From the NCBI RefSeq assembly GCF_006345805.1, contig NC_043000.1:116684001-116748000 (forward strand): a stretch of 64,000 nucleotides of DNA, written 5' to 3'. Both the position numbers and the translations under genes were made by a program. This stretch comes from Octopus sinensis (taxonomy: Eukaryota). Below the pieces are notes generated by a model. That model searched no databases. It was given only the letters and a program-made list of their open reading frames with translations, and was not told the DNA's origin. Positions 4,231-49,268 of this stretch are shown here, in pieces (position 1 is the stretch's first letter; each line of letters begins with the position of its first letter).

Positions 4231-4358
4231 ACACACACACACATATATATATGTATATATATATAATATGAGGGAATATTATTCCAAACTTACAGGGAAA
4301 AATTCAATTTAGAAATACTAAATCAAATTTCACAAAATATAATATATATATATATATA

Positions 4359-4615: not shown

Positions 4616-4682
<67 letters not shown>

Positions 4683-4685
<3 letters not shown>

Positions 4686-5265
4686 ATTTACAGGGCAAGA
4701 CTGCTAGGTAGTCTGCCGCATGCTAGAAATAGATCATCAACGATCAAACTACAAAGAAAGTTCTCTAGAGGAAAGATTCAGCGAACACCAGAACCAAATT
4801 TGGCGGGCAGGACAGATGAAAATTTATATAAAAAACAGAATTAATTGCATACCTCGGTTTCGGCCTTTAACAAAATAATTACTTACATAATTCAAATGTC
4901 CGTGGCTTCATCAGTACAATCGCTCAGTGTAAATGCAATCTCCAAACTAACCCCAGCTTTCTGTGCCAAAACAGACACGTGTTTAGTTTTACCGATTATT
5001 TTCAAATGTCTTAGTTCCGGCGCGCTAAAAAATTCCTGAAGCGAAGAACTGCAGTACATAATTCACTGCTGTTAGTGCTTGCTACTAGAGAACGTATTAA
5101 TTTCAATATTTAAATAATGAGGGAAATAAATTAATATTAATTTTAATATCAATTTAAAACCAGTAGTCTAGCGTACAAAAAATCTGAAAAATCAGAGAAC
5201 ATTCTAATACATGTGTATATTTACAGGGCAAGACTGCTAGGTAGTCTGCCGCATGCTAGAAATAG
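4683..5265 (-). mobile_element. Non-autonomous HHR-bearing Penelope-like/retrozyme element, partial tandem
   Basis: 50-bp direct repeat (4683-4732 = 5216-5265, period 533); HHR at 4844-4920; homologous copy in the opposite orientation at 48938-49225. Confidence 0.7.
4844..4920 (-). ncRNA. Type I hammerhead ribozyme motif
   Basis: Minus strand: auugua-CUGAUGA-aGCC-[long loop]-GGCc-GAAA-ccgag-GUA-ugcaau. Stem I is 6 bp with one GU; stem II has 3 GC pairs after an A.C mismatch; stem III ACCGAGGU is near-palindromic. Confidence 0.75.
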
Positions 5266-5271
5266 CACCTG

Positions 5272-5609
5272 TCTAACACCCGTAGACATGTTTACAAAGT
5301 CAGAAAACAGCACAGCTCCCATGACTTTGGGAAACATTTTTTCACGATAAGATTTGCTGAAGCATGGAACAAACTGTTGGCATCAGTTGATAGTTGTCAG
5401 AGCACTGCATCCTTCAACACTTCCATGCTTCCTGAGATTTGCCAACACTACACCTGATTTTCTCCCCTCCATACACACACAAATATGTATCTGACTCATA
5501 CACTGTTTACTTTCCAGACATTTGTACATCACTGTATAGTCTTTATATGCACTTTTGACAAGTTGTGGTGCACCTGAGCACTGTATACAATAATTTCATT
5601 CTTCTTCTT

Positions 5610-5680
<71 letters not shown>
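5272..5680 (+). mobile_element. CR1-group LINE 3' end (ORF2 C-terminus, 3'UTR, (TTC)n(TTA)n tail)
   Basis: From 5272: SNTRRHVYKVRKQHSSHDFGKHFFTIRFAEAWNKLLASVDSCQSTASFN, stop at 5455-5457. This matches the CR1 terminal motif TRGH..K...RK.FF..RV...WN.LP. Confidence 0.8.
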
Positions 5681-8864: not shown

Positions 8865-9282
8865 GGCGCAGGAGTGGCTGTGTGGTAAGTAGCTTGCTAA
8901 CCAACCACATGGTTCCAGGTTCAGTCCCACTGCGTGGCATCTTGGGCAAGTGTCTTCTGCTATAGCCCTGGGCCGACCAATGCCTTGTGAGTGGATTTGG
9001 TAGACGGAAACTGAAAGAAGCCTGTCGTATATATGTATATATATATGTATGTGTGTGTATGTGTTTGTGTGTCTGTGATTGTCTCACTAGCATTGCTTGA
9101 CAACCGATGCTGGTGTGTTTACGTCCCCGCCACTTAGCGGTTCGGCAAAAGAGACCGATAGAATAAGTACTGGGCTTACAAAGAATAAGTCCCGGGGTCG
9201 ATTTGCTCAACTAAAGGCGGTGCTCCAGCATGGCCGCAGTCAAATGACTGAAAAAGTAAATGAGTAAAATGAGTAATGAGTA
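8865..9282 (+). mobile_element. tRNA-derived SINE family S1 (CORE-like), full length
   Basis: A box gtggctgtgtgg, B box ggttcagtccc, CORE-like cttgggcaagtgtcttct, internal TA/TG microsatellite, tail ggcggtgctccagcatggccgcagtcaaatgactgaaa plus short terminal repeats. Confidence 0.9.
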
Positions 9283-22540: not shown

Positions 22541-22650
22541 ATATATAATATAATATAATATAATATAATATAATATATATATATATATACATACATACAG
22601 ACAGACACGTATTCTCAGCTATATATATATATATATTATATATATATATA

Positions 22651-23270
22651 TACATATAAAAGTAAATAAATGGCACAACAAAGCAACGATATTTACTGGA
22701 AAATAGCGAACGTAATAAATACGACGCTAATGTATAGCTTCACTGCGTATGTACTAGTAAAGATGCGTGTGTGCAGCAAACATGAAAAAAATTTTCTTAC
22801 CTCTAGGAAGAACATCTGAAAAATGAAAAACCTAGAAACGGATAATGCAGTACCGGTTTCAGATTCTTCAAAATACGTATGCCAACGTATATTTGATTTA
22901 TCTTCATCAGCCGCATATACCTCGACAATATTTCAAATGTTGCCACATCTATGCCAGTACACTCGTCTGAACGCCAAAACGTTAACAGAACGAGAACAGT
23001 GAAGAAGTTTCAATGAAAATAGTAATGCAATACGAGAGTATTGCTTTCCAGTAAAGGATAGCCCGTAAGGGTAAAATTATACATATAAAAGTAATTGAAT
23101 GGCACAACGAATCACCGATATTTACTGGAAAATAGCGAACGTAAAAAATACGACGCTAATGTATAGCTTCACTGCGTATGTACTAGTAAAGATACGTATG
23201 TGCAACAAACATGAAAAAAATTGTCTTACATCTAGGAAGAACATCTGAAAAATGGAAAACCTAGAAACGG

Positions 23271-23273
<3 letters not shown>
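22651..23273 (-). mobile_element. Retrozyme-like / PLE pseudo-LTR element: 1.45 copies of a 429-bp unit in (TA)n
   Basis: Direct repeats 22651-22844 and 23080-23273 (about 12 substitutions) around a middle carrying an intact HHR. Confidence 0.82.
22845..22916 (-). ncRNA. Type I hammerhead ribozyme, intact core
   Basis: Minus strand: augcgg-CUGAUGA-AGAU-[hairpin loop]-AUCU-GAAA-ccg-GUA-cugcau. Stem I 6 bp, stem II 4 bp, palindromic stem III ACCGGU; predicted cleavage between 22851 and 22850. Confidence 0.85.
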
Positions 23274-48581: not shown

Positions 48582-48937
48582 TAGATATTAATACAAGTAT
48601 GTACGTATAATTCTACATACTGAAATTAATGATACGAAATGAAAGATGCTATGAAACGTTCGTAATGAGTTGGAAACCATATGGAAAATAAATCTATTTT
48701 CACCTCTCACACCTTTACATTTTATATTTTTTTCACTATTCTGACTTCCTAGATTTTCAGTGGTTTGCACACGTCAGGTAGTTAGATATTGAACCCCCAA
48801 CATTTAAGTTACTGGACATTATTTCCTGGGATTACAACATCCGTTCAGAGGCGGCTACACATAACCTCTAATTGAATTATATATATATATATATTATATA
48901 TAATATATATTTTTTTTAAATAATGAGGGAGATAAAT

Positions 48938-49224
48938 GTGTCTGTACTGGCACGAAAGCTGGGGTTAGTTTTTCAGTTTACATTACAGTGAACGAATGCA
49001 CTGAAGAAGCACGGACATTTGAATTACGTAAGTAATTGTTTTGTTAAAGGCCGAAACCGAGGTATGCATTTAATTCTGTTTTTTATATAATTTTTCATCT
49101 GTCCTGCCCGCCAAATTTGGTTCCGGTGTTCGGTGTATTTTTCCTCTAGAGAATTTTCTTGTAGTTTGATCGTTGATGGTCTATTTCTAGCATACAGCCG
49201 ACTCCCTAGCAGTAAGCCCTGCCA

Positions 49225-49225
<1 letters not shown>
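48938..49225 (+). mobile_element. HHR-bearing element, same family as 4683-5265
   Basis: Reverse-complement homology to about 4685-4978; flanked by TA-rich tracts. Confidence 0.78.
48995..49070 (+). ncRNA. Type I hammerhead motif
   Basis: aaugca-CUGAAGA-agc-[loop]-ggcc-GAAA-ccgag-GUA-ugcauu. Stem I is a perfect 6 bp; stem II is weakened by loss of one C. Confidence 0.7.

Positions 49226-49268
<43 letters not shown>

What the first reader, a model, noticed from the sequence alone, without database searches (positions are those of the whole stretch)
4683..5265. Hammerhead element with stem I covariation against its sister copy at 48938-49225
Seen: the two copies have stem I auugua/ugcaau and aaugca/ugcauu. 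One pair swaps U-A to A-U and another changes U.G to C-G. The core differs only at the variable position 7 (CUGAUGA vs CUGAAGA). This copy also repeats its 50-bp terminus at period 533, cut off by a CR1 fragment. Established: Penelope-like elements and metazoan non-LTR retrozymes carry minimal type I HHRs. Inference: selection has kept ribozyme structure in a non-coding mobile family.
Basis: partly seen in the sequence, partly recalled or inferred. Interest (0 to 1): 0.75.

Follow-up and report, generated by a model that had tools for sequence, protein, structure and literature searches.

The report
Penelope-driven hammerhead retrozyme, cut-site footprint
This is one worn copy of a few hundred scattered copies of a non-coding jumping repeat that carries a predicted self-cutting RNA and is likely copied by Penelope-type enzymes; the kind is known, but copies tend to begin just after the predicted cut site, which suggests the cutting happened in living cells.

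Summary
The hammerhead, both stem I variants and the terminal repeat (55 bp, period 533) are real. The element is a 546-nt ORF-less repeat with at least 129 ribozyme-bearing copies. Its insertions look Penelope-made: partial tandems, ragged 5' ends, inverted arms, two fixed 3' ends and (TA)n/(CA)n targets. It is a non-LTR retrozyme or non-autonomous Penelope-like element; this scan has noted that kind many times on other DNA. The two-copy covariation is a single subfamily event that passed through a U·U intermediate, and inserted copies decay neutrally. Support for selection comes instead from a sister family (about 65-70% identical, found by its tail), which keeps the core and changes about nine stem pairs on both sides. 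The ribozyme is extended, not 'minimal', and has a near-palindromic stem III predicted to need a dimer. The most interesting result: 5' truncations pile up 1-22 nt after the predicted cut site (about 3.4-fold), weakly repeated in a second family, and mostly absent in the lineage with a stem II deletion. No autonomous partner was found, and cleavage is untested.

The parts
4683..5265 (-). Copy 1 of family A: 55-nt 5'-truncated piece of an upstream unit plus one unit, ending at the first fixed 3' end (no tail)
4678..4732 (-). 3' terminal 55 bp (pseudo-LTR-like direct repeat)
   Evidence: 55/55 identical to 5211-5265
5211..5265 (-). 5' copy of the repeat; shares 4 minority alleles with the 3' copy over the 50 nt compared, so one template
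4836..4927 (-). Extended type I hammerhead: helix Ib, loop 1 (C / UAA), stem I 4921-4915 with 4849-4843
4908..4914 (-). Catalytic core CUGAUGA
4862..4907 (-). Stem II (AGCC/GGCC, A·C at the base) with extension and GUAA-capped hairpin (4893-4876)
4850..4861 (-). GAAA, near-palindromic stem III and GUA; predicted cut between 4850 and 4849
   Evidence: cut position from established hammerhead chemistry
4931..4940 (-). Upstream near-duplicate of the stem I 5' strand, predicted to out-compete stem I in copy 1
   Evidence: folding prediction only
4616..4682 (.). (TA)n/(TG)n microsatellite holding the 3' end (likely target)
   Evidence: 121 of 127 family 3' ends lie in such repeats
5266..5680 (+). 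5'-truncated CR1-type LINE 3' fragment with (TTC)n/(ATT)n tail, joined 5'-to-5' to copy 1 with no microhomology
   Evidence: CR1 label from recalled ORF2 C-terminal motif in homologues L140, L145
48938..49235 (+). Copy 2 of family A (stem II deletion lineage), 5'-truncated at q251, ending in (TA)n
48915..48937 (-). 23-nt inverted piece of the tail joined to the 5' end of copy 2 (Penelope-type inverted arm)
22650..23273 (-). Copy of a separate 429-nt hammerhead family (C) with the same insertion layout; its 5' end lies about 7 nt after the cut site

Best explanation
The stretch is a neutrally decaying copy of a 546-nt ORF-less repeat with a predicted type I hammerhead, likely a non-autonomous Penelope-like element (non-LTR retrozyme) copied in trans by a microsatellite-targeting Penelope enzyme. 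Inferred cycle: tandem source loci are transcribed. The ribozyme cuts only part of the time, probably as a dimer because stem III is unstable alone. The borrowed enzyme nicks a (TA)n/(CA)n tract and starts reverse transcription inside the RNA at one of two fixed sites, 167 and about 277 nt after the cut. It runs a variable distance, through uncut ribozymes and into the next unit, and often adds an inverted arm. When the template's 5' end was made by ribozyme cutting, the copy starts just after the cut site. Selection on the fold acted on source lineages over long times, is weak or leaky in recent ones, and does not act on inserted copies. Shown: anatomy, copy number, insertion layout, cross-family pairing, truncation bias. 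Inferred: cleavage, dimer, template form, identity of the enzyme.
For: 129 and 177 exact matches to two 21-mers, reversed-pattern controls 0. Longest ATG-started ORF 64 aa, no tblastn hit to a Neptune ORF, 36% GC. 3' ends fall at q545-547 or the tail end, 121 of 127 in microsatellites. 37 of 93 loci hold both orientations; 5 hold two or more same-strand ribozymes. These are the PLE marks described in PMC8557442 and PMC11167929. Duplicated parts within a locus differ by 3.2% against 6.3% between loci. Family B (63-71% identity; found via the tail) keeps CUGAnGA in 28 of 34 rows and GAAA in 30 of 34, and changes I.3, I.4, I.6, II.2-II.4, Ib.2 and Ib.3 on both sides with pairing kept. Stem I in 52 A+B rows: 97.3% paired vs 86.0% shuffled, 4 of 7 pairs with double changes, slid controls 18-49%. 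Stem III: hairpin +1.8, self-duplex -6.6 kcal/mol. 5' ends at +1..+22: family A 18 events/1921 nt at risk vs 19/6892 upstream, p=1e-4; family C 12/1649 vs 37/11908, p=0.013; deletion lineage 2 of 29 vs others 16 of 67, p=0.04. Intact young Neptune-type ORFs exist in the genome.
Against: No autonomous element shares this family's ends: the abundant Neptune family shows no DNA similarity, and none was seen next to family A in the fetched loci. The stem II closing pair is mismatched in most propagated copies (A: 33 AGCC and 21 deletion of 93; B: U·U in 19 of 34), so crippled ribozymes still transposed; PMC11167929 found cleavage dispensable in vitro. Neither window copy folds better than shuffles (z -0.6 and -1.0). 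The +1..+22 window was chosen after seeing family A. It is AT-rich, and the excess over the AT-rich q40-121 region is only p=0.056. Family C against its whole length gives p=0.08. Only 1 family A end maps exactly at +1. In one search the two measures that count pairs or pair types did not beat the shuffles (469 and 471 of 500), and relatedness inflates the other measures. Stem II pairing across A and B was anchored on the structure. One tandem (L051) joins two subfamilies, which a single circular template does not explain.
Confidence: 0.75

Rival explanations
1. The copies are pseudo-LTR stumps of a lost or unseen autonomous Penelope element, and the ribozyme is a passenger inherited from it that is no longer needed.
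For: Mismatched and deleted stem II lineages spread as well as the perfect one, all about 2% from their own majority; neutral decay of copies; cleavage dispensable in vitro (PMC11167929); most PLE insertions are truncated (bioRxiv 10.64898/2026.07.22.740005).
Against: Long copies run into another copy of the monomer, never into an ORF; a 3.5-unit array exists (L024/L028/L029); family B has the same ORF-less monomer; truncation bias follows ribozyme integrity.
Confidence: 0.2
2. Classic retrozyme cycle: efficient double cleavage, circularisation, and rolling reverse transcription of one circular monomer.
For: Units within a locus are more alike than between loci; most copies span an intact cut site; circular RNAs are shown for coral, mussel and axolotl retrozymes (PMC7229834 passages). 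Not exclusive of the best explanation.
Against: A circle has no 5' end at the cut site, so it does not predict the pile-up; chimeric tandem L051; only 5 of 93 loci carry two same-strand ribozymes; weak stems II and III.
Confidence: 0.3
3. The 5' end pile-up is caused by AT-rich microhomology with the (TA)n target, or by the enzyme stalling at folded stem I, and not by cutting.
For: The region after the cut is 75-94% AT; ends lie mostly at +5..+22; AT-rich q54-75 has a similar hazard on 6 events.
Against: The deletion lineage has nearly the same sequence there and stem I intact, but few such ends; family C is less AT-rich there and shows a local excess.
Confidence: 0.35
4. This copy is a host-domesticated ribozyme under selection at this locus.
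For: None found beyond an intact core.
Against: Copy 1 has private changes and a 13-nt deletion, an A·C stem II mismatch, and a predicted competing fold with P(stem I) near 0 in context; family-wide core mutation rate equals the flanks.
Confidence: 0.02

Closest known systems
Metazoan non-LTR retrozymes (Cervera and de la Pena 2020, PMC7229834, passages seen; Li, Clavereau and Pollet 2026, bioRxiv 10.64898/2026.07.22.740005, parts 1-3 of 5 read)
   Same: ORF-less, low-GC monomer with one type I hammerhead per unit, dispersed as monomers, dimers and short arrays; short palindromic helix III as in amphibian types; proposed dependence on Penelope-like elements.
   Different: 546 nt (longer than the 170-400 nt of the 2020 paper, within the 51-972 bp of the 2026 preprint); mostly 5'-truncated partial tandems with inverted arms and two fixed 3' ends; no mollusc was among the preprint's four invertebrates; circular RNA and cleavage not tested here.
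Endonuclease-bearing Penelope-like elements, Neptune/Naiad type, and their non-autonomous derivatives such as MRC1 (PMC8557442 passages; PMC11167929 parts 1-2 of 4)
   Same: Pseudo-LTR from partial tandems, inverted 5'-truncated arm, optional tail between two initiation sites, microsatellite targeting, hammerhead in the repeat.
   Different: No ORF; tail about 110 nt instead of 30-40; no partner identified. PMC11167929 found no RNA-seq reads beginning or ending at the cut site, whereas here genomic 5' ends are enriched just after it.
PLE minimal hammerheads (min-HHR; Cervera and de la Pena 2014, PMC4209133, passages)
   Same: Type I, palindromic 15.2-16.2 region, predicted to work as a dimer, high variability with compensatory changes between families.
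   Different: Helix III and loop 3 are present, helix I is 7 bp plus a second helix, no extra nucleotide between 9 and 10.1, and G10.1-C11.1 holds in only about a third of family A copies.

Membership tests
Type I hammerhead ribozyme | Core CUGAnGA, GAAA, NUH in type I order with three helices | tested here: met
   Rfam models did not score it
Type I hammerhead ribozyme | Compensatory changes in helices | tested here: met
   across families A and B; within A only one event
Type I hammerhead ribozyme | Closing pair 10.1-11.1 of helix II | tested here: not met
   A·C in both window copies; G-C in about 29 of 93 family copies
Type I hammerhead ribozyme | Self-cleavage | not testable with these tools
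   indirect genomic footprint only
PLE minimal hammerhead (min-HHR) | No helix III/loop 3, short helix I, extra base before stem II | tested here: not met
   definition
Non-LTR retrozyme | ORF-less low-GC monomer with a type I hammerhead | tested here: met
Non-LTR retrozyme | Tandem units with two or more ribozymes | tested here: met
   5 of 93 family loci; not the window copies
Non-LTR retrozyme | Expressed linear and circular monomer RNA | not testable with these tools
   only contigs of runs not on record as RNA were available
Non-autonomous Penelope-like element | Partial tandem, inverted arm, two fixed 3' ends with tail | tested here: met
Non-autonomous Penelope-like element | Microsatellite or AT-rich targets | tested here: met
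   121 of 127 3' ends
Non-autonomous Penelope-like element | Shared 3' end or pLTR with an autonomous PLE | tested here: inconclusive
   one Neptune family compared, no match; other PLE families of the genome not enumerated

The most novel reading that the evidence does not exclude
Genomic copies record ribozyme cutting in vivo. Penelope-mobilised retrozyme insertions preferentially start just after the hammerhead cut site, and lineages with a damaged stem II lose this mark, so the templates include linear self-cleaved RNA rather than only circles. Natural subfamilies then form a ready-made series that links ribozyme strength to insertion shape.
Probability: 0.5. Interest if true: 0.55.

Novelty: new member of a known kind. 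Interest (0 to 1): 0.33.

Why it matters
What could matter is the open question of whether the hammerheads of Penelope-like elements and retrozymes cut during transposition: one in vitro study found cutting dispensable and saw no cut ends in RNA-seq. The 5' end bias here, with a built-in lineage control, is a sequence-only readout of cutting that can be scaled to every family in the genome. The natural GGCC, AGCC and deletion variants give a direct bench test.

Tried and rejected
Rfam gave no hammerhead hit (one search showed 150 of 198 hits, all microsatellite-driven). Partner search: the young Neptune family (17,729 first-look candidates) has no DNA similarity to family A; a pattern for the same stem III with a shorter stem II gave 3 matches against 4 for the control; no direct 5'-to-5' joints between different families were found in the fetched loci. 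Sequencing runs: no RNA holder listed; contigs of guessed-RNA runs cover the ribozyme but cannot show expression, strand or circles; other runs did not bridge the CR1 junction or show an empty site. Rooting family A with family B: the outgroup branch is too long, so the direction of the haplotype ladder is undetermined; the tree also included the ribozyme's own columns. Subfamily ages do not separate (1.6-3.0%). One search had an offset error, redone; one search stopped after printing its results. Target-site duplications cannot be read inside microsatellites. Lunse et al. (PMC5785218) is not held. No earlier scan note matched this sequence. U1.7 is invariant in 52 rows and loop 2 ends in A, as in tertiary-stabilised hammerheads (PMC11875169 passages): a lead only. 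bioRxiv supplements could list similar families and were not seen.

Full report
Observation. On the minus strand of 4683-5265 lies a type I hammerhead motif: stem I AUUGUA/UGCAAU, CUGAUGA at 4914-4908, GAAA at 4861-4858, and GUA with the predicted cut between 4850 and 4849. The sister copy at 48938-49235 (plus strand) has AAUGCA/UGCAUU and CUGAAGA. A loose descriptor finds 3 such motifs in the window against 0.15 in shuffles; the third belongs to another family at 22910. Rfam does not score them. The terminal repeat is 55 bp, identical, at period 533.

Family. The genome is 2.72 Gb and microsatellite-rich; I infer an octopus from this and from earlier scan notes, not from a label. It holds 129 exact matches to a ribozyme 21-mer and 177 to a downstream 21-mer, with controls 0. 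The monomer is 546-547 nt, 36% GC, with no ATG-started ORF above 64 aa. Copy 1 is shorter through a private 13-nt deletion. Positions written q refer to the monomer L004:1501-2047. Copies are partial tandems with ragged 5' ends and two fixed 3' ends, q547 or a tail of about 110 nt beyond it. 121 of 127 3' ends lie in (TA)n/(CA)n-type repeats. 37 of 93 loci hold both orientations, and 5 hold two or more same-strand ribozymes. Pseudo-LTRs, inverted arms, an optional tail and microsatellite bias are the described marks of Penelope-like elements (PMC8557442 passages), and the tail corresponds to two internal initiation sites (PMC11167929 parts 1-2). Duplicated parts within a locus differ by 3.2% against 6.3% between loci, and the two repeats of copy 1 share four minority alleles, so they come from one template; L051 is an exception joining two subfamilies. 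The flank at 5266 is a 5'-truncated CR1-type fragment (label from a recalled motif), but other copies end at q495-500 without CR1, so it need not have cut the element.

Covariation. Among 93 ribozyme-bearing segments, stem I is AUUGUA/UGCAAU in 38, AAUGCA/UGCAUU in 28, AUUGCA/UGCAAU in 7 and the mismatched AUUGCA/UGCAUU in 5. A tree of 73 family rows and 6 outgroup rows orders them as a ladder (root unreliable). Rare alleles hit CUGA.GA at 1.26% (7 of 557), loop II at 1.24% and the flanks at 1.0-1.8%, so inserted copies are neutral. Stem II is GGCC/GGCC in 25, AGCC/GGCC in 33 and shortened in 21, so weak ribozymes also spread. Better evidence comes from family B, reached through a tail motif (419 exact matches) and 63-71% identical along the monomer. 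It keeps the core (CUGAnGA in 28, GAAA in 30 of the 34 rows parsed out of 41) and shows double changes at I.3, I.4, I.6, II.2, II.3, II.4 and in a further helix Ib, with conserved loop 1 (C / UAA) and a GUAA-capped hairpin in loop 2. On 52 rows (32 of 62 distinct A, 20 of 32 B) stem I is 97.3% paired against 86.0% shuffled, with slid controls at 18-49%; the pair-count measures did not beat the shuffles, and relatedness inflates the rest. In B the stem II closing pair is U·U in 19 of 34. Family C shows AGAU/AUCU against AGAC/GUCU, but it was found by a structure scan.

Ribozyme type. By PMC4209133 (passages) a minimal hammerhead lacks helix III; this one has it, with extended helices I and II. 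Stem III is unstable as a hairpin (+1.8 kcal/mol) and stable as a self-duplex (-6.6), as in hammerheads reported to cleave as dimers. A GGCC-type copy folds better than shuffles (z -2.7); the window copies do not. In context, copy 1 is predicted to pair its stem I 3' strand with an upstream near-duplicate instead.

Footprint of cutting. I took the first 100 of 177 downstream anchors and mapped how far each extends upstream. After dropping 3 non-independent rows, 18 ends fall at +1..+22 after the cut (1921 nt at risk) against 19 in the 100 nt upstream (6892), p=1e-4. This window was chosen after seeing the data, the region is AT-rich, and against AT-rich q40-121 the excess is p=0.056. Applied unchanged to family C (99 of the first 100 of 165 anchors), it gives p=0.08 against the whole element and p=0.013 against the neighbouring regions after dropping 1 row. 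Within family A, a classifier using downstream sites only (correct in 61 of 66 checkable rows) puts 2 of 29 deletion-lineage copies and 16 of 67 others in this window, p=0.04. This is moderate support for partly cleaved linear templates; microhomology and stalling are not excluded. The searches and one search listed no paper whose title or abstract reports such a footprint or octopus retrozymes; I read only the passages and parts named here. The octopus repeat annotation PMC13282606 has no occurrence of hammerhead, retrozyme or ribozyme in its main text. Subscription journals and supplements were not covered.

Partner. A young Neptune-type family with 811-aa open frames is abundant and often shares microsatellites with these elements, but it has no DNA similarity to family A. 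The partner is unidentified.

Verdict. A real, new member of a known kind: a Penelope-dependent non-LTR retrozyme, consistent with bioRxiv 10.64898/2026.07.22.740005 (parts 1-3 of 5). The scan's index holds 133 notes with the words hammerhead, Penelope, retrozyme and octopus, none matching this sequence. The flagged covariation is weak on its own; the cross-family pairing and the cut-site footprint are the worthwhile parts. Interest 0.33.

Noticed in passing
window 22650-23273 (-): Second hammerhead family (C): 429-nt monomer, 165 exact anchor matches, stem II covariation, GUA and GUC cut triplets, same Penelope-type layout.
   Followed up: yes
L131:2488-5290 (G000:C8): Very young, abundant Neptune-type PLE (98-99% identical copies, 811-aa open frames) whose 3' UTR carries a small hammerhead with the U3-A8 core variant, a variant described in PMC4209133.
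   Followed up: partly
L159, L182-L211: Older sister family B (monomer about 530 nt, 419 exact tail-motif matches); shares a conserved tail motif with family A that may be the binding or initiation signal for the enzyme.
   Followed up: partly
window 4931-4940 (-): Upstream near-duplicate of the stem I 5' strand in the copy 1 lineage, predicted to sequester the cut site (P 0.95 in copy 1, 0.79 in L086); absent from the deletion lineage. Possible damping switch.
   Followed up: partly
L051:1421-2345: Tandem whose two units come from different subfamilies (7.5% apart): template switch or insertion into an older copy.
   Followed up: no
window 4256-4345 (-): Short stretch ending like the family A tail and running into (TA)n; possibly the 3' end of another related element.
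   Followed up: no
L034:2107-3018: 305-aa open frame resembling the N-terminal region of a HERO- or PLE-type retroelement (recalled motif), beside a family A copy.
   Followed up: no
L260, L301, L319: Families A, B and C nest in each other's (TA)n tails, which points to shared targeting.
   Followed up: partly
window 8868-9076 and six further copies (D20): Abundant SINE-like repeat family scattered through the window.
   Followed up: no
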